Source: Acinetobacter phage vB_AbaM_B9 | DNA length: 64,000 nucleotides | Reading direction: 5' to 3' (one strand) | Sequence record: MH133207.1 | Shown here: positions 39,672 through 64,000 of the stretch, in pieces | Layout of the letters: each line of letters starts with the position of its first letter | How positions within the stretch are numbered: the first letter of the stretch is position 1 | Program-made: the position numbers and the translations under genes | The notes under the pieces: model-generated | The model's database searches: none | Seen by the model: only the letters and a program-made list of their open reading frames with translations | What the model was told of the DNA's origin: nothing

Positions 39672-40131
39672 AGATGAAGCGCTTCATGAAGAAGTATTAA
39701 AAGTAAAATCTTTCACTTATGTTCCTTACTGGGATTATAAGATTATTAAGAAGGTTGATCATGTAACTTATCATAATTGGGATGGTAAAACGTTCTTCAG
39801 TAAAGAACAAGCTGAAGAATATGTTGATAAGGCACTTAAAGATCGCAAACGTCTTCAACAGTTGTCAAAGATAGGTGAATTAAGTAATGCTGAATTACTT
39901 AAGCTATATCCTAATTTAACACACTTATTGAAAGAGCCAAAAGAGATTAAAGTAATTTCTGAAAAACCAGTTTATGTTTATGAGCTTTGGAATAATGAAG
40001 ACGATGATGAAATGTACATTGGTGTTTTTGCAGACTTAGATGCTATTGAGTATTTCATTATTGATAGACACGATGTAAGATGGAATTTGGAAATGGTTAT
40101 TGAGAAGGGGAGTGTTAATGATAATCCTTAA
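39661..40131 (+). CDS. hypothetical protein
   Basis: 156-aa ORF. Confidence 0.4.
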   Translation: METKDEALHEEVLKVKSFTYVPYWDYKIIKKVDHVTYHNWDGKTFFSKEQAEEYVDKALKDRKRLQQLSKIGELSNAELLKLYPNLTHLLKEPKEIKVISEKPVYVYELWNNEDDDEMYIGVFADLDAIEYFIIDRHDVRWNLEMVIEKGSVNDNP

Positions 40132-40438
40132 AGAACCTGTAAAGTTGGATGAAGAGAATGTTGATTATGGTTATGCCTTGACAACTGACGAATATAACAT
40201 TATCATATACAAACTTGGTATTTATCTTAAAGGTAAGAATCAAGGTGAATTCTCTAAAACACCTATAGGCTATTTCTCAACACTAGAACACACTTTACAG
40301 CGCATTAAAGACCTAGAAGTACGTTTGCGTGGCTTGGAAGATTTAGAGGGTCTGGTGGAGCGTATAAGTGCTGTAATGGATGAAGTTTCAGTTAATTTAA
40401 AGATTGTTAAAATCACTAAAGGAGATGTGTTAATATGA
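40100..40438 (+). CDS. hypothetical protein
   Basis: 112-aa ORF. Confidence 0.35.
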   Translation: MRRGVLMIILKEPVKLDEENVDYGYALTTDEYNIIIYKLGIYLKGKNQGEFSKTPIGYFSTLEHTLQRIKDLEVRLRGLEDLEGLVERISAVMDEVSVNLKIVKITKGDVLI

Positions 40439-54439: not shown

Positions 54440-54783
54440 TAACTCTTACTCCATTTTAAATTTATGATGTACTTTAAACGATCTAATTCAAATCTAGCGA
54501 AAGTAAAACAACTTAATATAACCTTATCATAGCAATCTTTAGAATTGTAAACAATATTACCTTTCTTGTCAAGAATGTTAATTACATCTTTATTGAATAC
54601 ACCTGTAAACCCGTCTAGTTGATATTCGCCAATTAGTTTTACAGTGTCTAAATAATCGCACCATTCTTTTTGAAAAGATTCAACAATATCTAAACTTGGA
54701 TAGTAAGGACCGTTAATGCAAGGTTCTATATTTAAACAATATTCCAAACTACTAAAGTTGTACCCGAAACATGAATTGTTCAT
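54439..54783 (-). CDS. hypothetical Cys-rich protein
   Basis: 114-aa ORF. Confidence 0.4.
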   Translation of the reverse strand: MNNSCFGYNFSSLEYCLNIEPCINGPYYPSLDIVESFQKEWCDYLDTVKLIGEYQLDGFTGVFNKDVINILDKKGNIVYNSKDCYDKVILSCFTFARFELDRLKYIINLKWSKS

Positions 54784-55262
54784 TTATTCTCCACAATTAC
54801 TGTGTATCCAAAAACACCTAATTTTTCAATTTGCTCTGTAGTAACACGACCGAAGACAACAATAGCAGACGGAAAAGGCGCATTTTCTTTAGCACTACCA
54901 AAACGTAATCTTCCCTTAATAAAACAAACTGCTGAAGAATCCTTAAAGATTACATCGTGCCAAATCTTTGTGTCTGGTTTAGCTGGAATCAACATCACGA
55001 TGGTTGTATCGTTTTTCAAGGCTTCATCACGAGCCTTTTTAATCCAGTCTTTTTGCATCCTACCATAAGGAGGATTACACCAGCAAACATCAACCCAATC
55101 TTGTTTTAACCCATCTACTTCAGGTGTGAAGTACTCATTACACTTTGCTGTTTCAGGTAATGCACACACATCCGTTTTAAAATTAAATACTGTATTTAGT
55201 TTATCAAATAAATCTTGAGGTGTTTCCCAAGTGTGATCTTTACTGCTGTGATAAACTTTCAT
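54780..55262 (-). CDS. dam: DNA N6-adenine methyltransferase (phage Dam-type)
   Basis: TWETPQDLFDKLNTVFNF..DVCA N-terminal motif, WCNPPYG catalytic (D/N)PPY motif, and the LIPAKPDTKIWHD...FIKGRLRF pattern of phage Dam-family methyltransferases. Confidence 0.8.
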   Translation of the reverse strand: MKVYHSSKDHTWETPQDLFDKLNTVFNFKTDVCALPETAKCNEYFTPEVDGLKQDWVDVCWCNPPYGRMQKDWIKKARDEALKNDTTIVMLIPAKPDTKIWHDVIFKDSSAVCFIKGRLRFGSAKENAPFPSAIVVFGRVTTEQIEKLGVFGYTVIVENK

Positions 55263-56380: not shown

Positions 56381-57127
56381 CTAACTCACATCGTATAAAT
56401 CCTCAAGTAATAAATAACCTTGTTTACGTTTTCCATCAACTTCACTAACCACTTGTGTCTTTCTAACAACAAAATAATTTCTTATATCGTTACCTACAGC
56501 TTTTCTGTTTATATTGAGACTATCGTAAGTTTTTTGTAAAACACTTGTGATATGTGATGATGTATACTTTTTACCAACACGTAAACAACCTAATTTACTT
56601 TTTATCTCTAAGTGGTGGTCTTGGAATTTCAAAGCTAAATTGTATGCGTTAAACAACTTGGTTTTATTAAAACCAATAGATTTAATCTTATCAACACCTA
56701 ATACATCAACAAGGAGCTTATGTTCTTCTGAGTAGTTAGATATGTTTTCCACAGTTATAGTATCCCCTACTTCAATAGCTTTTATGTATTTTTTCAAAAG
56801 TTTACAAAAATCCACCTTGAACCCACATTTCAAATGTTCGAGTGTATTGACTTTGTTGAGTAGTCTGTTAAACGGTGGAGAAAGTCTAGTGATACATAAC
56901 TCTTCGTACTTCAATGATTCTTCTTTCGAGCTGAAATATTCTACAATTTCAACCGTAATACAACCATCCTCTCCATTCTGAAAGAAATAGCGATTTAAAG
57001 CTTTGTTAGAGCTAGTGCCATGTAGACAGTGTTTATATCTTTCACCAGAACCTTGTCCAATGTAAAGAATTTCACCCTCTAATCCTCGTGCAAAGTAAAC
57101 ATAAAAATTTTTCAAACTTTTACTCAA
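56381..57127 (-). CDS. GIY-YIG homing endonuclease
   Basis: N-terminal FYVYFARGLEGEILYIGQGSGERYKHCLHG contains the GIY-YIG motif with conserved Arg/His. Long C-terminal DNA-binding-type region. Confidence 0.65.
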   Translation of the reverse strand: MSKSLKNFYVYFARGLEGEILYIGQGSGERYKHCLHGTSSNKALNRYFFQNGEDGCITVEIVEYFSSKEESLKYEELCITRLSPPFNRLLNKVNTLEHLKCGFKVDFCKLLKKYIKAIEVGDTITVENISNYSEEHKLLVDVLGVDKIKSIGFNKTKLFNAYNLALKFQDHHLEIKSKLGCLRVGKKYTSSHITSVLQKTYDSLNINRKAVGNDIRNYFVVRKTQVVSEVDGKRKQGYLLLEDLYDVS

Positions 57128-57151: not shown

Positions 57152-58450
57152 TTAAATGTTTTCTTCTTGTAGCCAATCTAAGAACAAGTCCTTCATTCTT
57201 TTAGACAAGATAGCAAGATTGATCGGTTTTCCATCTCGTATTGCAGACCTCCAAATAAATTGAAGCATTTCAGATAAAGCAAACACATCAGCATTTATTG
57301 GATATCCGTAGTCTTGTAAATAGCTAGCAACACTTTGATTCGGGTATCGGTCATAAGCATGAATAACACAAGTTTTATGTCTATAAGCATTCGTTGCTCT
57401 TGTGTTTGATGCCAACCAACAAACATTCTCAGGACACTTTTGTATCTTTAACTCTGTATCTACTAAACCGCTAGGTTTAATCTTAGCTGCTTTCGACTTA
57501 ACATCCAGATTACTTCTATTCTTTGGGAATGTATAAAGTAAATCATAACTAGAAGCTCTCCATGAGCGAGCAATAGAGAGGATATACCCTTCAATGTGTT
57601 TAATGTCTTGTGCAGACATCTTCGAATAAGCAGACACAGATAATTTTAAATCTTTCTTCCACTTCTGATTAGTTGGTGAATAAAGGTTAATTAATTTAGC
57701 TATCTCTTTCTTACTTGGTATAATTGGTGTAATCTCATCGAATACTTTATATGGAATACCCTTCAGCTTTAGAAAACTACTTAAAATATTACCTTCAAAC
57801 ATGTATGTTAAGATAATAGCTCTCTTCGATGATGTGATCAACTTAACGGGAAGCTGTGTAACAAACATATCATCTTTACGCTTACTAACATACAACATCT
57901 TGTTCTGAACATGTCTCTTAAACTTGCTATATTTATGTCTAAAATCATCAAATGCTTTATCTAAGTTGCTATCGATATCTTTACCACACCAAATTAACAT
58001 TCCATCATTTTCTTGTACACTAATCACACCAAGCTCAATTAGAGAAGTTACATCTGGTGCTGAATACGCATGATAATCGTCAATCATTGCAATCTCTTCA
58101 TCTACAACTAAAACATAATTGTGTTTCTCCATTTCACTAAAATGCTCATCTGTCATGTTTAAATATAGATTGTGTGTACATGTGATGTTAGCACCAATCC
58201 TCAATAATTCTAATAAGTGACTACCTTTTGTGTCATGGCGGTTATCTTCATCATCTCTTTTGGTTTCTGGAGCTACAAATCTAGTTAATGGACAAGCTTG
58301 TTGAATACGCCCACCGTCTTTAACTTCTTCTAGGAGTGGTGATATGTAAAAGAATTTATACATGTGATTATTCTCTTCCATCCATTTACAAATCTTAGAA
58401 GTTTTATGTGACCCCATCATGGCATCTACAATCTCTACAACATTACTCAT
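57152..58450 (-). CDS. P-loop NTPase-like protein with deviant Walker A (first gene of the - strand block)
   Basis: MMGSHKTSK (deviant Walker A), VLVVDEEIAMIDD (Walker B-like), C-terminal WRSAIRDGK. Confidence 0.35.
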   Translation of the reverse strand: MSNVVEIVDAMMGSHKTSKICKWMEENNHMYKFFYISPLLEEVKDGGRIQQACPLTRFVAPETKRDDEDNRHDTKGSHLLELLRIGANITCTHNLYLNMTDEHFSEMEKHNYVLVVDEEIAMIDDYHAYSAPDVTSLIELGVISVQENDGMLIWCGKDIDSNLDKAFDDFRHKYSKFKRHVQNKMLYVSKRKDDMFVTQLPVKLITSSKRAIILTYMFEGNILSSFLKLKGIPYKVFDEITPIIPSKKEIAKLINLYSPTNQKWKKDLKLSVSAYSKMSAQDIKHIEGYILSIARSWRASSYDLLYTFPKNRSNLDVKSKAAKIKPSGLVDTELKIQKCPENVCWLASNTRATNAYRHKTCVIHAYDRYPNQSVASYLQDYGYPINADVFALSEMLQFIWRSAIRDGKPINLAILSKRMKDLFLDWLQEENI

Positions 58451-58769
58451 TATGTATTATTTACCTCATATTATTAAAATGACAAACAATATAACACAAC
58501 TTAATTTTAAAAACAATTAACATAATTCTAATTGATTAATTAATACACAAATTGTAACATTGGCGCAATGTTCCTAAGGGGATAATCAATTTCCATTATA
58601 TTTTGTGGTCTTAGTTTTTGGGAAGGTTTACTATAAGGAAAAGGAGTTTAATCTATTGATTAATAAGGAATAAAAAAGGAGTTTGTAAGGCACCACCTTA
58701 CTGGGAATGGTAAAAGTACTAATTGTACACTTTATGTAACTTTAATATTAACACTAATAAAGGCTTAGA

Positions 58770-59400
58770 ATGGTTGTAGTATATGGTAGTAGTGGTAAAG
58801 AATTTTAAATCAAGTAGTTATATTAAATTAGTGTTATCCTAGTGTTAATAGTGAACACATGTACACTACTGAACGTAGTGAAGTACACTTAAACGATAAT
58901 AGTAAATCACCAATAGTGTATTAGTAATACCACCAGTAGTGTATCAGTGGTGTACATCAGTATTGTTCTATTAGTGTATTTATAAGGATTGTAGGTTTCT
59001 AGTGGTATTTCAGTGTTATTCTAAAAACACTTATAAATTATCTTTAAGGTAGTTGTAAGTTACCTTTAGTGTTATTGTAGTGTTAATCACCTTAGACAAA
59101 TAAATACAACCACTTTAGTGTAAAATAATTTAATAAAACACAAAATAATTAAAATTAATTTAAATTAGTTACAATTACACAGAAATAAACTTAATTATTG
59201 ACATGTTACAATAAGATTTATCTTGACTTTATCCTACTTTAGTGTTATAACTAGTGTCAGCACTAGTGCTATTATTAGTGTTCTTATAAGAAAGAGGGAT
59301 TAGAATGATCGATTGATCTAATCCCTTATATTATAAATAACTTAATAGTGTGTATTAGTGTTATGACACTAGTGACTTGCACATACAGTAGTAGACTACA
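58770..59400. repeat. iteron array: about 17 or more copies of TAGTGT(T/A)(A/T) and variants (TAGTGG, TAGTGA) in both orientations
   Basis: Copies read directly at 58829, 58841, 58849, 58875, 58913, 58935, 58970, 59001, 59012, 59066, 59076, 59114, 59238, 59250, 59262, 59275, 59345, 59357 and 59368. No ORF of 60 aa or more on either strand between 58451 and 59690. Confidence 0.7.
59296..59325. repeat. perfect 9-bp inverted repeat GGGATTAGA / TCTAATCCC with a 12-nt loop containing two GATC sites and a central ATCGAT
   Basis: Read directly. Confidence 0.8.
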
Positions 59401-59690
59401 GCTAGCACAAACTATGTTGTTCTTCTTTGTTGTGTTATATTATCTTAAACAGGTTATTTTCTTTTGTTGCTTTCTTAACAGAAAGAGAATAGAATGAGAT
59501 GTTGTTTTGTTGTTGTGTTACAACGAACGAAGTGGTATAATGTTTGGTGTTGATGTGTTGTTGTTTGCTCCTAAGACTGTCGTCTTAGCTTGATACGAGC
59601 ATTAGGATATTCTTAACTTTGAAAACAAAATGCCGTTGCTTTTGATGGCACCCCCTCCCTTCTGTTAATTTAGTAATTGTAGAGTGTTTT

Positions 59691-59900
59691 ATGTTTTATT
59701 TAAATTTGTTTTTAACTATTGGATTAATATCTTGTTGTGTTTCTTTAGTGTGTATTGTTATTAATGTATTGTGTTGCTACAACACACCTAAGATTATTGA
59801 GAAGATTGGTAGTGTTGTTATACCTATCAGTTTATTCTTCTTGATTATGATCATTTGTTTTATAGTTGTTGTGTCATTAATCTCAATATGGACTAACTAG
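59691..59900 (+). CDS. possible small hydrophobic protein (low confidence)
   Basis: 69-aa ORF with Cys/Ile/Val-rich low-complexity sequence. No clear RBS. Confidence 0.2.
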   Translation: MFYLNLFLTIGLISCCVSLVCIVINVLCCYNTPKIIEKIGSVVIPISLFFLIMIICFIVVVSLISIWTN

Positions 59901-59929
59901 ATGACCAAATCTTGTAAAAATTCTTGATC

Positions 59930-59952
59930 TACCCTCACGCACGAGGGTTTTG
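59930..59952 (+). terminator. weak rho-independent terminator
   Basis: ACCCTC-ACGCACG-GAGGGT followed by TTT. Confidence 0.35.
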
Positions 59953-60363
59953 CAGAAAAATTGGGGGAATTGCAAAATTATTTGAAATGCGTAAATTTCG
60001 GATTTGGTGGTGGAAAAACGATCAACCATAGTTTATCTTTTTGTAGAATGAAAGGTAAAGAAATGTAATTTTTCTTGATTTACAATCATTTCTATGTTAT
60101 CCGCGCACACGTTTCTTTATCTACTGATAAAAGCTCCAGGTGTTGCAGGTGCTCCAGATGTTTTCACTGAACCGAGCACCAAGTAATAAATAACGGTTGC
60201 TTTATTGTGATTAATGATAAAAGACGGTGCTTAATTCACCTAAATAAATGATTTTCTATAACTACTAATAAAAGATTTAATAAAGTAAACAATTAAATTA
60301 GCTTTATTTTCATGTATTTATAAGTATTTTTAGTGTTATTTTAAAATTATTTGGAAAAAGTGC

Positions 60364-60391
60364 TTGCAATAAATCTAAAATTTGTTATTAT
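60364..60391 (+). promoter_or_regulatory. sigma70-like promoter TTGCAA-16-TATTAT within the conserved AAAGTGCTTGCAAT motif, with ~200-nt leader
   Basis: Read directly. Same motif class as the promoter at 62585. Confidence 0.45.
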
Positions 60392-60596
60392 GAACTCATA
60401 CCAAGCAGACAAGCTAAGTATAAGGGATAGAGATAAGCTCTTCGGAGTTGCTACCAAAGTTGCTGATAAATGCTTCAGTTGCCAAAAACGTAAAACTTTG
60501 CTCTACAGGCTCACAGTGTAAGACCTGGTTATCCAATTCCTAGCGTACTCAAGATTGATTGTAGGTTACTTACAAGCTAAACAATTTAAAGGAAAT

Positions 60597-60806
60597 ATGA
60601 CCATGAAAAACATTATCTTTAAAACTCTACAAGTTTTATTAATCCTAGCGTTCGTGATAATCGGTTTTGTGTTTGTTGGTGCTTTTGTAGAATACAAAAC
60701 ATTGAACGGTGCTAATGTTTACGCTGGTTTGGTATTTGCAACTGTTTTATGTACTGCTATATCGGCAATCGGTTTTGTAGTAATTAAAGAAACTGTTTTA
60801 AACTAA
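60597..60806 (+). CDS. small membrane protein (2 TM)
   Basis: ATG at 60597 after AAGGAAAT. Two hydrophobic helices. Confidence 0.4.
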   Translation: MTMKNIIFKTLQVLLILAFVIIGFVFVGAFVEYKTLNGANVYAGLVFATVLCTAISAIGFVVIKETVLN

Positions 60807-60833
60807 ATTTAATCTAACATAGGAAATACGACA

Positions 60834-61190
60834 ATGAACAACATGATCAATGTACCAGTTGAATTTGTAATTGATGCCCTACAAGCTCGATATGATGATG
60901 TGAAGGATAAATGGAGCAATGATGCAAGTGAAGCTCTATGGGAACAAGCTCTACAACTCGTTGAAGAATGCGGATTAGGCAGTGACATTACAAGCTCTAG
61001 CGCTTATGTAGACAATTACCTTATTAACGGTGAATTTGTTAGTAAAGAAAGTGACTTTGATGAGTGGACAAAAGATTATAAAGAATCTTATGATTTTTCT
61101 GATAGTGTAGAGGTCGAGGCTGCTTGGAATGAATATTGTCAAGACAATGCTTTAATCTATAATGATGAGTATGCTTGTTTATCATTCTAA
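60834..61190 (+). CDS. hypothetical highly acidic protein (DNA-mimic candidate)
   Basis: 118 aa, rich in Asp/Glu/Trp/Tyr. Confidence 0.4.
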   Translation: MNNMINVPVEFVIDALQARYDDVKDKWSNDASEALWEQALQLVEECGLGSDITSSSAYVDNYLINGEFVSKESDFDEWTKDYKESYDFSDSVEVEAAWNEYCQDNALIYNDEYACLSF

Positions 61191-61243
61191 CACTTAAACA
61201 AACGTGCATTGTGTTTAATAAACAACATGGTGCACAATATTAA

Positions 61244-61447
61244 ATGATTTTTTATTTGAGGTATTTACAAATGTATAAAGTAGGCGATGAAGTTATTTAT
61301 AAAGGTGTACCAAAAGATTTTAGACGATTAGATCACAAGGCTATTATTTTGCGAAAAACCTTTGAACCAAACTACTTCGTAATAAAACTATTGAGTGGTG
61401 CAGAACTATTGGTTTCTTCTGATTTTCTGTCTTTAGATTTAAACTGA
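61244..61447 (+). CDS. hypothetical protein (KOW-like KVGDEVIYKG N-terminus)
   Basis: 67-aa ORF. Confidence 0.35.
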   Translation: MIFYLRYLQMYKVGDEVIYKGVPKDFRRLDHKAIILRKTFEPNYFVIKLLSGAELLVSSDFLSLDLN

Positions 61448-61623
61448 TTTAAATTAATTTTTCGGAGTAACATAACATGAAACATTATCAGATTATTCAT
61501 AACGGATTAGTTTATTGTGTAGATGTTTATGCATCATCTAAAAGAGAAGCTATTGCACAATATAGGCAGCAATGGAATCTTGAAGGAAAACGTATTAACT
61601 TACAATGTTGGGAGGCTTAAATA

Positions 61624-61821
61624 ATGACATATTCACTAAAAAACATGAACAAATGTGATGTGACTGCAATTGAAGTTATTTATAAAGGCGGTAAACGGCG
61701 TATATTCAATCTTAAAAATAAAGTTTATCGCTATGATGCTTTAGACTTACAAACAAAGTTAGAGAACTATGACAATGTATTTCGTGTAAATTGTCATACA
61801 ACGTTAAACAAGTGTTTTTAA
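61624..61821 (+). CDS. hypothetical protein
   Basis: 65-aa ORF. Confidence 0.35.
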   Translation: MTYSLKNMNKCDVTAIEVIYKGGKRRIFNLKNKVYRYDALDLQTKLENYDNVFRVNCHTTLNKCF

Positions 61822-61836
61822 GGAGGATTTAAACCA

Positions 61837-62043
61837 ATGTTAATCATTAACCGCTACAAATGCCCTATATCAGGGAAAACCTCAATATGTGCCCATAAGG
61901 TCAATAATATGAAAGTGATTAAGAGTTATAAACCATGTGATGAGTCATTCATTGAAATGTTAGCTCAAGGGCATAAACAATTTCTATTGTGTGACGTTCC
62001 TAGTTATAGTATGTTAAGTAAAATTAATATTGTGAGAAATTAA
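61837..62043 (+). CDS. hypothetical protein
   Basis: 68-aa ORF after AAGGAGGA. Confidence 0.4.
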   Translation: MLIINRYKCPISGKTSICAHKVNNMKVIKSYKPCDESFIEMLAQGHKQFLLCDVPSYSMLSKINIVRN

Positions 62044-62045
62044 CT

Positions 62046-62270
62046 ATGTTATATCAAATACAAGTTAAAGCTGATAATCAGCGTGTTTACAGAAAACTGT
62101 CAATTAAAATGCGTTCAATTGAAGCATTGAAGAAAGATTTAGAAGCTTATGTGATTATGTATGGTGAAGGTAATCAGATTAATCATCACACTGTTTCAGC
62201 TCAAATTATAGATCAAAACGGTAATGTTGTATTTGAAAGATTATCCAACGCTACAATCAATAGAGTTTAA
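62046..62270 (+). CDS. hypothetical protein
   Basis: 74-aa ORF. Confidence 0.35.
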   Translation: MLYQIQVKADNQRVYRKLSIKMRSIEALKKDLEAYVIMYGEGNQINHHTVSAQIIDQNGNVVFERLSNATINRV

Positions 62271-62279
62271 TCGGAGTAT

Positions 62280-62498
62280 ATGAAAATGATTATGAACGAT
62301 AGTTTGACAGCTTTAAAAGGTTGCTGCGATAAAAACGGTGGAGAATTATCCGAAGTTCTAGTATTAGTTAATGGTCGTCACTTTGTTGTAGGACTAGACT
62401 CATTCACTGATTGTATGAATGAAACAACATATTATGTCGATAGTAGATACAATATCAGAATGCAAGATATAGAAAAATGGTTTTTATTGAGAGCATAA
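62280..62498 (+). CDS. hypothetical protein
   Basis: 72-aa ORF after GGAG. Confidence 0.4.
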   Translation: MKMIMNDSLTALKGCCDKNGGELSEVLVLVNGRHFVVGLDSFTDCMNETTYYVDSRYNIRMQDIEKWFLLRA

Positions 62499-62511
62499 TG
62501 ACTCACCTTGC

Positions 62512-62536
62512 AGCGCCATTGAAGGCGCTTTTTTAT
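62512..62536 (+). terminator. rho-independent terminator
   Basis: AGCGCC-ATTGAA-GGCGCT followed by TTTTTT. Confidence 0.75.
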
Positions 62537-62584
62537 TGTCTGAACAAAATAATTAATTATTTTAAAATTATTTAAAGAAAGTAC

Positions 62585-62613
62585 TTGCATTGAGTAAGTG
62601 AAATTGTTATATT
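62585..62613 (+). promoter_or_regulatory. sigma70-like promoter TTGCAT-17-TATATT within the conserved AAAGTACTTGCATT motif, with ~125-nt leader
   Basis: Read directly. Shares an extended upstream motif (TTTAAAATTATTT..AAA.AGT.CTTGCA) with the promoter at 60364. Confidence 0.5.
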
Positions 62614-62736
62614 TGTTTCATCGGATGAATGATCATTGGCTAGCAAGCTCGATTGAGACAGTGCATAGATTGATCGCCACACCTTTTTAGGATTAAGCGG
62701 CATCTGATAAGTTAAAATTAATCGGAGTAATACACT

Positions 62737-63045
62737 ATGAAAAACTTATTTATCGCTTTAATCGTTACATTGCTTGCAATCTTAAATGTAGCTTGTGTAG
62801 ATTCAAAAAATGAACAAGCTGAAGTAGTAGTAGTGGATACGGTTAAAATGTTTAATGATGCGATTGCTAATAAAGATTCTAAATCTGCTTTAGTTGCAAT
62901 CGAGTTAGATGTAAAAAATGACGGTGAAGCTATCCACAAATGTAAAAAAGATACTATCGCTAAAATGTCGAAATTCATTGATAGTGACGACTATGTAGTG
63001 ACATATGAAGCATTGAATGCTCAGTGTGCATTTGCTACGATGTAA
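62737..63045 (+). CDS. putative secreted protein or lipoprotein (signal peptide ending ...ILNVAC)
   Basis: N-terminal hydrophobic signal sequence followed by Cys at position 20 in a lipobox-like context. Confidence 0.4.
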   Translation: MKNLFIALIVTLLAILNVACVDSKNEQAEVVVVDTVKMFNDAIANKDSKSALVAIELDVKNDGEAIHKCKKDTIAKMSKFIDSDDYVVTYEALNAQCAFATM

Positions 63046-63089
63046 TTAAAGCAAACAAACAAGCTAAGCAAGCTTAAAGGAAACACAGC

Positions 63090-63275
63090 ATGGTAAATCA
63101 GAAACAGTTAGCTATCGAATTGAACGAAGCTTATGTAGAGTATTACAATGCTTTCTTAACAGTAGAACGTTATGCAGCATATAAAGGATGGTCCTTATTC
63201 TTTGCTAAACAAGTGATTAAATCAGGTCGAAAGATCAATCATAATCAAGAGTTATTAAAAGCTTTATATTCTTAA
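63090..63275 (+). CDS. hypothetical protein
   Basis: 61-aa ORF. Confidence 0.3.
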   Translation: MVNQKQLAIELNEAYVEYYNAFLTVERYAAYKGWSLFFAKQVIKSGRKINHNQELLKALYS

Positions 63276-63541
63276 TCTGTTTATATACATGTGTATTTAG
63301 CTTAAACACTAGATGCACTCAATATATAAACAAACACTTAAAGGATAATCACTATGTACAGTTTGATCATTATGTTCTTTTTAAATAACGGTATGAAATA
63401 TGATACTACAATTGTTAAATCTAATATGTCTAAACAATCTTGTTTAACGTTATCATCACAACTTATGGAAAACCTGCAAGGCTCTAACTACGAGCTTAAA
63501 TGTGTACCGACTGAGGACGAATAAAAGATTAACAATACAAT

Positions 63542-63566
63542 GCCCGCTATATGCGGGCTTTTTTAC
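63542..63566 (+). terminator. rho-independent terminator
   Basis: GCCCGC-TATAT-GCGGGC followed by TTTTTTA. Confidence 0.8.
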
Positions 63567-64000
63567 GTCTATAGAAAACATATCCTAGAATACTAATAAT
63601 ATCCTTCATTATAACGCCGTATAGCAGCTTTATAACAACGTTATAGACTATTAAGCTAGTGTAGTACCTTAACGTATTAAAGTGTCTGTAATGAGCTTAG
63701 AATGTGATTTAAAGCTATGTTTAAAATTTTCTATATAGAATTTAATTAATATTGTTTCTTTAATCTTATATCAAAATTAAATATCAAATCTTTTTAGCTT
63801 AAGGGTATGTGTTAAGAAGTTTGTTTGTGTGTTTGTAAATAAAGATATAAGAAATAATTTAAATCAAGTGTGGTGAATCTTAGAAGCTTTGTAGGTATAT
63901 ACCAGTGATGGTGAAAATAAAAGTGTTAATCTTTAAAGCGATATTATAGGATATTTTATAGGAAAAACCGATCGAAAAGACCTAGCCATCGCTTGGTATT

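What the first reader, a model, noticed from the sequence alone, without database searches (positions are those of the whole stretch)
58451..60554. About 2.1 kb ORF-free region with a dense TAGTGT iteron array between divergent gene blocks; candidate replication origin or regulatory hub
In an otherwise tightly packed genome this stretch has no ORF of 60 codons or more on either strand. Between 58770 and 59400 the hexamer TAGTGT, and close variants TAGTGG/TAGTGA, occurs about 17 or more times in both orientations, often in tandem pairs (for example TAGTGTTATTGTAGTGTTAAT, TAGTGTCAGCACTAGTGCTATTATTAGTGTT). The same region contains a perfect 9-bp inverted repeat, a GT-rich tract (59480-59570), a 7-bp hairpin CTAAGAC/GTCTTAG and a C-tract CACCCCCTCCC. 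It separates the leftward operon starting at 58450 from rightward small genes. Iteron clusters of this kind typically mark replication origins, partition or packaging sites, or arrays of repressor operators. Adjacency to an NTPase gene (57152..58450) fits an origin or packaging role.
Basis: seen in the sequence. Interest (0 to 1): 0.7.

Follow-up and report, generated by a model that had tools for sequence, protein, structure and literature searches.

The report
Repeat array marking a phage genome end
The dense TAGTGT cluster is real, and in related Acinetobacter phages it sits exactly astride the point where the DNA is cut to make the left end of the packaged genome, so it is most likely part of the cutting and packaging signal rather than a classical replication origin.

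Summary
The window is an Acinetobacter baumannii myophage of the TaPaz/Ab5/Ab3/phiAB441 group. The TAGTGT cluster is real. There are 16 exact copies (13 on the + strand) in 58740-59400, against 2.1 +/- 1.4 in local dinucleotide shuffles. The rest of the window is at background, and a complete relative (Ab5) has only one such array.

The region is not fully ORF-free. 59691-59900 encodes a conserved 69-aa membrane mini-protein, and 60189-60417 is a conserved early-promoter cassette.

The main result concerns genome ends. GenBank records of Ab5 and Ab3 carry exact direct terminal repeats (DTRs) of 3.9-4.0 kb. In both, the array straddles the left DTR boundary (about -350 to +250). That boundary maps to window 59095|59096, inside a nearly invariant 150-bp core. 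The predicted DTR here is 59096-63990.

Motif bases are conserved well above the surrounding non-coding DNA (81% vs 58%, p = 0.0006). T7 has the same layout, a polar CCTAAAG array around its terminal repeat.

Best reading (confidence about 0.5): a cis-acting terminus-generation and packaging element acting on concatemers. A replication origin or an early regulatory role is not excluded. The NTPase adjacency is not conserved. No binding protein was identified, and the termini of this phage itself are untested.

The parts
58731..59375 (+). Whole TAGTGT array: about 16 exact and 21-23 near-exact copies, more than 80% on the + strand. It is a conserved cis module.
   Evidence: counts and shuffles; top non-AT hexamer in five phages; motif bases 81% conserved against 58% for non-motif bases, p = 0.0006; nucleotide similarity to Ab3 and MD-2021a begins at about 58731; the array is unique in the complete Ab5 genome.
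58731..59095 (+). Outer half of the array. It lies in unique sequence just upstream of the predicted DTR and is present once per virion genome.
   Evidence: Sub-clusters with 11-bp and 23-bp periods. An invariant TTTAAATCAA holds an IHF-like site at 58808.
59060..59215 (.). Nearly invariant core of about 150 bp that contains the predicted cut site 59095|59096 (...TAGTGTTAATCACCTTAG|ACAAATAAATAC...). The part from 59096 on is 83% A+T.
   Evidence: alignment A1; the first bases of the Ab5 and Ab3 records align here, and the phiAB441 record starts 6 nt upstream. A+T content; the same core in L019.
59096..63990 (.). Predicted direct terminal repeat (about 4.9 kb), carrying small rightward early genes. 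Its interior is mosaic between relatives. The boundaries are inferred by homology only.
   Evidence: exact DTRs of 3864 bp (Ab5), 3972 bp (Ab3) and 5018 bp (Ab15); both boundaries mapped onto the window; conservation confined to the two boundary blocks.
59216..59375 (+). Inner half of the array. It lies inside the DTR, so it would be present at the extreme left end and again in the right DTR copy.
   Evidence: 12-bp period over 59240-59282. Ab5 has 7 copies at its left end.
59296..59325 (.). Perfect 9-bp inverted repeat with a 12-nt loop that holds two GATC sites. It looks like a terminator but is not conserved in Ab5, Ab3 or TaPaz.
   Evidence: sequence; the alignment diverges here. GATC at 59307 and 59315.
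59513..59541 (+). Promoter-like site: TTGTGT, 17-nt spacer, TATAAT, with an extended -10 TG (TGgTATAAT). It is followed by the conserved hairpin at 59571-59588.
   Evidence: Read by eye. The consensus scan does not list it, because the -35 hexamer matches only 3 of 6. The surrounding DNA 59500-59605 is 90-100% conserved in TaPaz and Ab3.
59691..59900 (+). Gene for a 69-aa two-helix hydrophobic mini-protein, the first gene in the DTR.
   Evidence: 94% identical in phiAB441 and 30-36% in others, with length and hydropathy kept. Annotated as a CDS in relatives.
60189..60417 (+). Conserved early-promoter cassette: an AT-rich upstream stretch, TTGCAA (60364-60369), a 16-nt spacer and TATTAT (60386-60391) with an upstream TG. 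It is 88-93% identical even in the otherwise unrelated Ab15/Herod group.
60418..60571 (+). 154-nt insertion in the leader between the promoter cassette and the first downstream gene. It is absent from phiAB441 and TaPaz and shared with phage Bestia. No RNA family match and no unusual folding.
   Evidence: (Bestia 94.5%), and (z = +1.27).
63522..63990 (.). Conserved non-coding block that ends at the predicted DTR right boundary (...GACCTAGCCATC|GCTTGGTATT). It has no TAGTGT array.
   Evidence: 89% identical to Ab5 and Ab3..
57152..58450 (-). Neighbouring 432-aa gene of the PF27199 (YonV_C) family with P-loop-like motifs. It is not a conserved partner of the array.
58451..58730 (-). Upstream region of the leftward operon, with sigma-70-like sites on the - strand. 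It is not conserved in Ab3 or MD-2021a and is not part of the array.

Best explanation
The TAGTGT cluster is a strand-polar array of about 620 bp, made of short protein-binding motifs and centred on the left boundary of the phage's direct terminal repeat (predicted at about 4.9 kb). That boundary is where concatemeric DNA is cut to create the left end of the packaged genome. SHOWN: the array is real, unique to this locus, under purifying selection at the motif bases, and conserved as a module together with an invariant 150-bp core, whatever the flanking genes are. In two relatives whose records include the terminal repeats, the end of the DNA lies in that core, between a tandem motif pair at -29/-18 and a motif at +20. 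INFERRED: a sequence-specific phage DNA-binding protein (the small terminase or an accessory packaging factor) binds many copies on uncut concatemers. The sub-clusters with a spacing of one helical turn would favour cooperative binding on one face of the DNA. This assembly positions the large-terminase nuclease at 59095|59096, and its polarity sets the direction of packaging. After cutting, the inner half of the array stays on the leading end of the DNA, upstream of the early promoters.
For: (1) Exact DTRs exist in the Ab5, Ab3 and Ab15 records. (2) In Ab5 and Ab3 the array runs from about -350 to +250 around the DTR start, with sites at -18 and +20 in both. TaPaz, MD-2021a and L019 have the same geometry around the same core. 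(3) Ab5 and Ab3 are only about 75% identical in this region, yet their ends fall on the same homologous nucleotide. The phiAB441 record starts 6 nt away. The chance of a random genome position falling inside a 620-bp array in a genome of about 93 kb is about 0.7%. (4) The core is nearly invariant. Motif bases are 81% conserved against 58% for non-motif bases, and whole hexamers 0.52 against 0.21, p = 0.0006, with some turnover of individual sites. (5) Conservation along the DTR is confined to its two boundary blocks while the interior is mosaic, which is what cis-acting processing sites would show. (6) The array is roughly symmetric about the cut, so half of it lies outside the DTR. That fits a function carried out on uncut DNA. 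(7) There is one array per genome and no excess elsewhere in the window, so this is not a general transcription-factor box. (8) Other DTR phages show the same arrangement with different repeats. T7 has a polar CCTAAAG array around its 160-bp DTR, and Ab15 has a 24-bp tandem array ending 20 bp before its DTR start. (9) Conserved terminal sequences in DTR phages have been read as terminase recognition or cleavage sites before (PMC5418689).
Against: The termini of the window's own phage are not determined. The boundaries are transferred by homology from GenBank records, and I found no publication or method for them. No binding protein was identified, and the terminase genes lie outside the window. 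The DTR right boundary has no array, so the array cannot be a general 'cut here' signal. BS46 and Phab24 have packaging proteins 74-88% identical to TaPaz's but lack the array and the core. The function of the analogous T7 repeats is itself not established, as far as I recall. An A+T-rich core flanked by direct repeats is also what an origin looks like.
Confidence: 0.5

Rival explanations
1. Replication origin. The TAGTGT copies are short iterons for a phage initiator or primase-helicase, in the manner of the octamer iterons of satellite phage P4 (recalled from memory). The 83% A+T core would be the unwinding element, and its coincidence with the terminus would be secondary or would reflect a combined ori-pac element.
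For: Direct, mostly co-oriented repeats flank an 83% A+T conserved core. The array is unique in the genome. It lies at a divergent-transcription and GC-skew turning point. In virion DNA a complete array survives at the right DTR junction. As I recall, T7 also has secondary origins close to both ends: its record annotates promoters named phiOL and phiOR there, but says nothing about origins.
Against: The repeat unit is about 6 bp with weak flanks and irregular spacing of 9-124 bp, not 17-22 bp regularly spaced iterons. There are no DnaA boxes. The replication genes are 19-39 kb away, and the only 'replication initiation protein' homologue is at 40118-40435. The adjacent NTPase is not conserved in that position. 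GC skew follows transcription direction, so it is not independent evidence. An origin does not explain why the DNA end falls in the invariant core.
Confidence: 0.15
2. Early-infection element. The repeats would be operators or host-factor binding sites on the first DNA to enter the cell. They would control the early promoters in the DTR or DNA entry, as proposed for the repeat-rich injection-stop region of the T5 terminal repeat.
For: The inner half of the array lies within the first 280 bp of the DTR, upstream of promoter-like sites at 59513-59541 and 60364-60391 and of the early genes. T5 has a large untranslated, repeat-rich region in its terminal repeat with a proposed entry function (bioRxiv 10.1101/866236). 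In T7 the repeats precede the early promoters A1-A3.
Against: About half of the array lies outside the DTR and is therefore absent from the leading left end, yet it is equally conserved. Sigma-70-type sites are not enriched (12 found against 13.8 expected), and most copies do not overlap a promoter. There are no DnaA boxes. No regulator gene with a DNA-binding domain was found among the flanking proteins. The sites are mostly direct repeats, not the palindromes usual for repressor dimers.
Confidence: 0.15
3. RNA-level function. Part of the array would be transcribed as a small non-coding RNA whose repeated UAGUGU motifs sequester an RNA-binding protein.
For: There is a strong strand bias (13:3). 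A possible short transcription unit runs from TTGACT-17-TATAAC (59220-59250, read by eye) to the hairpin at 59296-59325.
Against: That promoter and the hairpin are not conserved in Ab5, Ab3 or TaPaz although the motifs are. The array spans the physical DNA end. No Rfam match was found. No convincing rightward promoter lies upstream of the outer half.
Confidence: 0.05
4. No sequence-specific function. The repeats would be a by-product of slippage or recombination at a frequently broken DNA end.
For: There is local turnover of copies and short tandem sub-clusters.
Against: Motif bases are much more conserved than neighbouring bases in five genomes (p = 0.0006). The polarity, the extent and the -29/-18/+20 geometry are the same in lineages that are only about 75% identical.
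Confidence: 0.05

Closest known systems
Short-repeat arrays at the phage T7 concatemer junction. I recall these as SRL/SRR from Dunn and Studier 1983. The sequence layout was re-checked here in NC_001604.
   Same: A short motif (7 bp there, 6 bp here) repeated 11 or more times with irregular spacing. All or nearly all copies are on one strand. The array straddles the left boundary of the terminal repeat, with copies upstream of the DTR, inside it and after it. Early promoters and the first early gene follow.
   Different: The T7 DTR is 160 bp, so its array brackets the whole repeat. Here the DTR is about 4.9 kb and only its left boundary carries the array. The motif is unrelated. T7 is a podovirus with its own RNA polymerase. 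As far as I know the function of the T7 repeats is unproven, so the analogy is structural only.
Phage P1 pac site and lambda cosB (recalled from memory, not tested here)
   Same: Several short protein-binding elements flank a terminase cut site: hexamers TGATC(A/G) in P1, and R sites plus an IHF site in lambda. Here hexamers lie on both sides of the cut, and an invariant IHF-like site sits in the outer half.
   Different: P1 uses headful packaging and lambda uses cohesive ends, while this phage group has exact long DTRs. P1's hexamers carry Dam sites and TAGTGT does not. This array has more copies and is wider (about 620 bp against about 160 bp). No protein binding has been shown here.
Injection-stop (iss) region of the phage T5 terminal repeat (Davison, bioRxiv 10.1101/866236)
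   Same: A large untranslated, repeat-rich stretch inside a long terminal repeat that carries pre-early or early genes.
   Different: The T5 region lies at the inner end of the first-step-transfer DNA and is built around eight DnaA boxes. Here there are no DnaA boxes, the array sits at the terminus itself, and half of it is outside the repeat.
Iteron-type replication origins (lambda ori and plasmid origins; phage P4 ori/crr octamers; recalled from memory)
   Same: Co-oriented direct repeats lie next to an A+T-rich segment, and there is one copy per genome.
   Different: The unit length and spacing do not fit classical iterons. There are no DnaA boxes and no adjacent initiator gene. The element coincides with a DNA end.
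Conserved terminal sequences of Bacillus cereus-group DTR phages (PMC5418689)
   Same: Related DTR phages share the same sequence at the physical end, which was read as the terminase recognition or cleavage site. The invariant core here behaves in the same way.
   Different: The passages I read report a short shared terminal sequence and mention no flanking multi-copy array.

Membership tests
Iteron-type replication origin | Direct repeats of about 17-22 bp at regular spacing (about two helical turns) | tested here: not met
   The conserved unit is 6 bp with weak flanking preferences. Spacings are 9-124 bp and there is no significant helical phasing over the whole array. Only short local sub-clusters of 11-12 bp and 23 bp exist.
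Iteron-type replication origin | Adjacent A+T-rich unwinding element | tested here: met
   59096-59215 is 83% A+T and nearly invariant.
Iteron-type replication origin | Host DnaA boxes | tested here: not met
   No match to TTWTNCACA or TTNTNCACA in 58451-60554.
Iteron-type replication origin | Cognate initiator gene next to or overlapping the repeats | tested here: not met
   The neighbour is a PF27199 (YonV_C) protein whose adjacency is not conserved. The phrog_154 'replication initiation protein' homologue is at 40118-40435.
Iteron-type replication origin | Replication initiates at the site | not testable with these tools
   This needs marker-frequency data, 2D gels or a plasmid replication assay.
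Phage terminase recognition/cleavage (pac/cos-type) site | Coincides with the physical end of virion DNA | tested here: met
   Met by homology only. The DTR starts of Ab5 and Ab3 map to 59095|59096, in the middle of the array. It was not measured for this phage.
Phage terminase recognition/cleavage (pac/cos-type) site | Multiple short protein-binding elements flanking the cut | tested here: met
   There are 13 TAGTG-core copies upstream of the cut and 10 downstream (TAGTG on either strand, 58751-59370). They are conserved above background.
Phage terminase recognition/cleavage (pac/cos-type) site | Conserved sequence at the cut site among relatives | tested here: met
   A nearly invariant 150-bp core occurs in six lineages.
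Phage terminase recognition/cleavage (pac/cos-type) site | Bound by the small terminase and required for packaging | not testable with these tools
   The terminase genes are outside the window. The positional small-terminase candidates in TaPaz (gp48, gp46) match no family, and the gp46 model was unusable (pLDDT 46).
T7-type junction repeat arrays | Strand-polar short repeats around the terminal repeat | tested here: met
   13 of 16 copies are on the + strand here. In T7, 11 of 11 are on the + strand.
T7-type junction repeat arrays | Arrays on both outer sides of the terminal repeat | tested here: not met
   There is no array at the DTR right boundary in the window, Ab5 or Ab3.
T5-type injection-stop region | Ordered set of DnaA boxes at the inner end of the first-entering DNA segment | tested here: not met
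   No DnaA boxes. The array is at the terminus, not at the inner end.
Repressor operator array | Sites overlap promoters, and a regulator gene is nearby | tested here: inconclusive
   Promoter-like sites are not enriched, and no DNA-binding domain was found in the ten flanking proteins. However, promoters were only predicted and small early proteins match no family.
Partition (parS/centromere) site | Adjacent ParA/ParB-type genes | tested here: not met
   No ParA or ParB hits among the neighbours. I recall this group as virulent phages; the papers I read do not state a life cycle.

The most novel reading that the evidence does not exclude
The array would be the first defined packaging signal of a long-DTR myovirus. 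It would be a polar, multi-copy hexamer 'landing pad' that loads and orients the terminase on concatemers, much as polar motifs orient other DNA translocases. It might also serve as the origin that produces those concatemers, making it a combined ori-pac element. Different lineages would use different repeats (TAGTGT here, a 24-bp unit in Ab15, CCTAAAG in T7) that co-evolve with a specificity protein.
Probability: 0.2. Interest if true: 0.6.

Novelty: new variant of a known kind. Interest (0 to 1): 0.45.

Why it matters
To my knowledge, how phages with long exact terminal repeats choose their cut sites is poorly understood. That group includes many therapeutic Acinetobacter, Staphylococcus and Bacillus phages. 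A conserved, easily recognised array that marks the left end would have three uses. It gives a sequence-only way to orient and trim assemblies of this phage group: most deposited records of these phages start at arbitrary points and lack the repeat. It gives a concrete DNA substrate for finding the specificity protein. And it gives a handle for engineering or transduction-type packaging assays. It would also give a second system, alongside T7, in which to ask what such repeats around a terminal repeat do.

Tried and rejected
1. Compositional artefact: rejected by local and global shuffles.
2. Hidden coding sequence: no ORF of 50 aa or more in 58520-59690 on either strand, and the motif's TAG closes the + strand frames.
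3. Cluster of sigma-70 promoters: 12 sites against 13.8 expected.
4. Known RNA or tRNA: none at gathering thresholds, and only a chance-level snoRNA hit in the sensitive scan.
5. DnaA-box or T5-type element: no boxes.
6. GC skew as origin evidence: it simply follows gene orientation.
7. More relatives of the core sequence in viral, metagenome and genome collections: no exact-pattern hits. The window's own 432-aa protein is not in the exact-match index. One extra lineage (L019-L022) was recovered through a 98%-identical homologue.
8. Published basis for the Ab3/Ab5/Ab15 termini, and any earlier description of the motif or of T7-type arrays: nothing was found in the searchable library. The TaPaz and BS46 papers do not mention termini or repeats.
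9. Linking the array to a protein. TaPaz gp46 is 93-94% identical in array-bearing phages and 45-48% in BS46 and Phab24, against a baseline of 78-95%. But two other proteins are equally divergent, only two lineages are compared, gp46 matches no family, only two homologue clusters exist, and the structure model was unusable (pLDDT 46), so no fold search was run. gp48, directly upstream of TerL, shows no extra divergence.
10. The 154-nt leader insertion as a structured RNA: z = +1.27.
Full report
WHAT THE WINDOW IS. The flagged DNA matches only Acinetobacter baumannii myophages of about 88-102 kb (phiAB441, Ab5/Ab7, Ab3, TaPaz, MD-2021a, and more distantly BS46, Phab24, Herod, Bestia, Ab15). No record covers 80% of the query. 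The window runs from the tape-measure gene through the tail, replication and nucleotide-metabolism genes on the + strand. A block of - strand genes follows at 46.9-58.45 kb, then the flagged region, then small + strand genes to the end of the window. The terminase genes lie outside the window.

CHECKING THE OBSERVATION. TAGTGT occurs 66 times in the window against 44 +/- 6 in shuffles. Sixteen of these fall in 58740-59400 (13 on the + strand), which is 24 per kb against 0.79 per kb elsewhere. Local dinucleotide-preserving shuffles give 2.06 +/- 1.35 with a maximum of 7, and no non-AT hexamer reaches more than 7 copies in shuffles against 13 observed. Near-variants bring the total to 21-23. The flanks are only weakly constrained, roughly (c/t)(a/t)(t/g)TAGTGT(t/a)(a/t). 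Spacing is irregular at 9-124 bp, with short sub-clusters of 11-12 bp and 23 bp period.

Three corrections are needed. First, 59691-59900 is a real gene for a 69-aa hydrophobic mini-protein that is conserved in position and architecture. Second, the copies are strongly polar rather than 'in both orientations'. Third, the copy at 60331 is a chance variant inside a different element.

THE MAIN FINDING: THE ARRAY SITS ON A GENOME END. Three GenBank records include explicit, exact direct terminal repeats: Ab5 3864 bp, Ab3 3972 bp and Ab15 5018 bp. In Ab5 and Ab3 the TAGTGT copies run from about -350 to +250 relative to the first base of the repeat, with a tandem pair at -29/-18 (TAGTAT at -29 in Ab3) and a copy at +20. 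The first bases of both records align to window 59096 (...TAGTGTTAATCACCTTAG|ACAAATAAATAC...), and the phiAB441 record begins 6 nt upstream. The last base of the repeat aligns to window 63990. The predicted repeat is therefore 59096-63990, about 4.9 kb, and it holds the small rightward genes. TaPaz, MD-2021a and a further lineage recovered from public assemblies (L019-L022) show the same geometry around the same core.

CONSERVATION. In a four-genome alignment the 150 bp around the cut (about 59060-59215) are nearly invariant, while the flanks are about 75% identical. Outside that core, bases inside TAGTGT copies are 81% conserved against 58% for other bases. Whole hexamers are retained in 52% of comparisons against 21% (permutation p = 0.0006). 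Some copies are gained or lost in single genomes. Along the predicted repeat, nucleotide similarity to Ab5, Ab3, MD-2021a and L019 is confined to two blocks, about 58731-59516 and 63250-64000, and the interior is mosaic. In Ab3 and MD-2021a the gene to the left is a different one on the other strand, yet similarity starts exactly where the array starts. In the complete Ab5 genome the array is unique: 18 copies in the best 600-bp window, 7 in the left-end copy of the inner half, and at most 3 anywhere else.

WHAT IT IS NOT. It is not a set of sigma-70 promoters (12 sites against 13.8 expected). It is not a known RNA and not coding. It is not a DnaA-box element of the kind proposed for the T5 injection-stop region. 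The GC-skew turning point at about 58 kb only mirrors the switch in gene orientation.

The 'NTPase' argument is weak. The 432-aa neighbour has P-loop-like motifs: GSHKTS and VLVVDEE here, and a canonical MGSGKST in TaPaz_175. It belongs to the widespread PF27199 (YonV_C) family of unknown function. It matches no Pfam-A model in the local copy used here, no NCBIfam model and no solved structure. Ab3 and MD-2021a carry a UvrD-type helicase in its place. In more distant phages the gene sits inside operons with no non-coding neighbour. The only homologue of an annotated replication initiation protein is at 40118-40435.

MECHANISM. The array is about symmetric around the cut, so half of it lies outside the repeat and is absent from the leading left end of virion DNA, yet that half is equally conserved. 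This points to a function carried out on uncut, concatemeric DNA. Together with the invariant cut-site core, the polarity and the one-turn sub-clusters, the best reading is a terminus-generation and packaging element. A sequence-specific protein would bind many copies and position the terminase nuclease.

This step is inference. No binder was identified. TaPaz gp46, the first gene of the packaging operon, is a divergence outlier between phages with and without the array. That rests on two lineages, other outliers exist, and the structure model failed.

An origin, or a combined ori-pac element, remains possible because of the A+T-rich core and the direct repeats. So does a role in early regulation or DNA entry, because the inner half precedes the early promoters. 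I give these 0.15 each.

COMPARISON WITH KNOWN SYSTEMS. I checked my recollection of T7 against its record. T7 has a 160-bp repeat, 11 CCTAAAG copies in the first 340 bp, all on one strand (3 inside the repeat, 8 after it), further copies just upstream of the right repeat copy, then promoters A1-A3 and gene 0.3. That is the same layout with an unrelated motif. It differs in that the short T7 repeat is bracketed on both sides, whereas here only the left boundary has an array.

Ab15, a different Acinetobacter phage group, has a 24-bp tandem array ending 20 bp before its repeat starts. BS46 and Phab24 have neither the array nor the core, and their ends are unknown. P1 pac hexamers and lambda cosB are functional analogies recalled from memory. 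Conserved terminal sequences in Bacillus DTR phages have been interpreted as terminase sites (PMC5418689).

THE REST OF THE FLAGGED INTERVAL. The segment 59400-59690 holds a promoter-like TTGTGT-17-TATAAT with an extended -10 TG (read by eye) and a conserved hairpin. The segment 60189-60417 is an early-promoter cassette (TTGCAA-16-TATTAT plus about 170 bp upstream) that is 88-93% identical even in the Ab15/Herod group, which shares nothing else here. In the window it is followed by a 154-nt leader insertion shared with phage Bestia, which shows no sign of structure.

VERDICT. The feature is a new variant of a known kind, a short-repeat array at a phage terminal-repeat boundary, and I found no published description of it in this phage group. 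Its function is unproven both here and, as far as I know, in the T7 precedent. Interest is moderate.

Noticed in passing
window 60189-60417: An early-promoter cassette of about 230 bp (AT-rich upstream stretch, TTGCAA-16-TATTAT, start of the leader) is 88-93% identical across two otherwise unrelated Acinetobacter phage groups, TaPaz/BS46-like and Herod/Ab15/Bestia/YMC13-like. The similarity stops sharply at 60417. This suggests either horizontal exchange or unusually strong constraint on a promoter module.
   Followed up: partly
window 60418-60571: A 154-nt insertion in the 5' leader is absent from phiAB441 and TaPaz but 94.5% identical to phage Bestia. It has no Rfam match and no unusual folding energy (z = +1.27). 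Its nature is unknown.
   Followed up: partly
window 59691-59900: A family of 65-70-aa two-helix hydrophobic mini-proteins forms the first gene(s) of the terminal repeat. Sequences diverge fast (30-36% identity) while length and hydropathy are kept. TaPaz and phiAB441 carry two copies.
   Followed up: partly
window 63990-64000: The window ends 10 nt after the predicted right boundary of the terminal repeat. This may be chance, or the source record may end at or near the physical right end.
   Followed up: no
window 58808-58820 (and 58649): An IHF-consensus match (AATCAAGTAGTTA) lies inside an invariant TTTAAATCAA in the outer half of the array. There are two IHF-like sites in the region against 0.4 expected. 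This recalls the IHF site in lambda cosB.
   Followed up: no
L004 3876-3968 (Ab15 record 97175-97267): Ab15 has a different array, a 24-bp tandem unit (about 3.3 copies, or 48 bp x 1.9), ending 20 bp before its own terminal repeat starts. The Herod record begins 30 nt upstream of that point.
   Followed up: partly
L015 3073-3738 (TaPaz_46) and its homologues: The 221-aa first gene of the packaging operon is 93-94% identical in all phages with the array but 45-48% in BS46 and Phab24, which lack it, against 78-95% for neighbouring structural proteins. It matches no family and has only two homologue clusters in 5.8 billion proteins. By eye it has a GIY-YIG-like N-terminus and an HTH-like C-terminus.
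   Followed up: partly
window 57152-58450: The YonV_C-family protein here has a degenerate Walker A (GSHKTS), while its TaPaz homologue has the canonical GSGKST. It may have lost NTPase activity.
   Followed up: no
window 54780-55262 and 59307/59315: A phage Dam-type N6-adenine methyltransferase gene lies 3 kb from the array. The loop of the 9-bp inverted repeat inside the array holds two TGATC sites. P1 pac uses methylatable TGATC(A/G) hexamers, but the hairpin is not conserved in the relatives.
   Followed up: no
window 56381-57127: The 248-aa gene next to the YonV_C gene has weak GIY-YIG and homing-endonuclease similarity (Pfam E = 0.008, phrog_314 E = 6e-5). Part of it is fused into a 621-aa protein in Phab24.
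   Followed up: no
L011 3414-4655 and L012 3095-4011 (BS46, Phab24): The equivalent non-coding regions of BS46 and Phab24 lack TAGTGT but are mildly enriched in TGCTTT/TTTTGCTTTT. As I recall, the core of that motif resembles the T4 MotA-box core TGCTT. The window also has a few TTGCTTT copies (59459, 59636, 60196).
   Followed up: no
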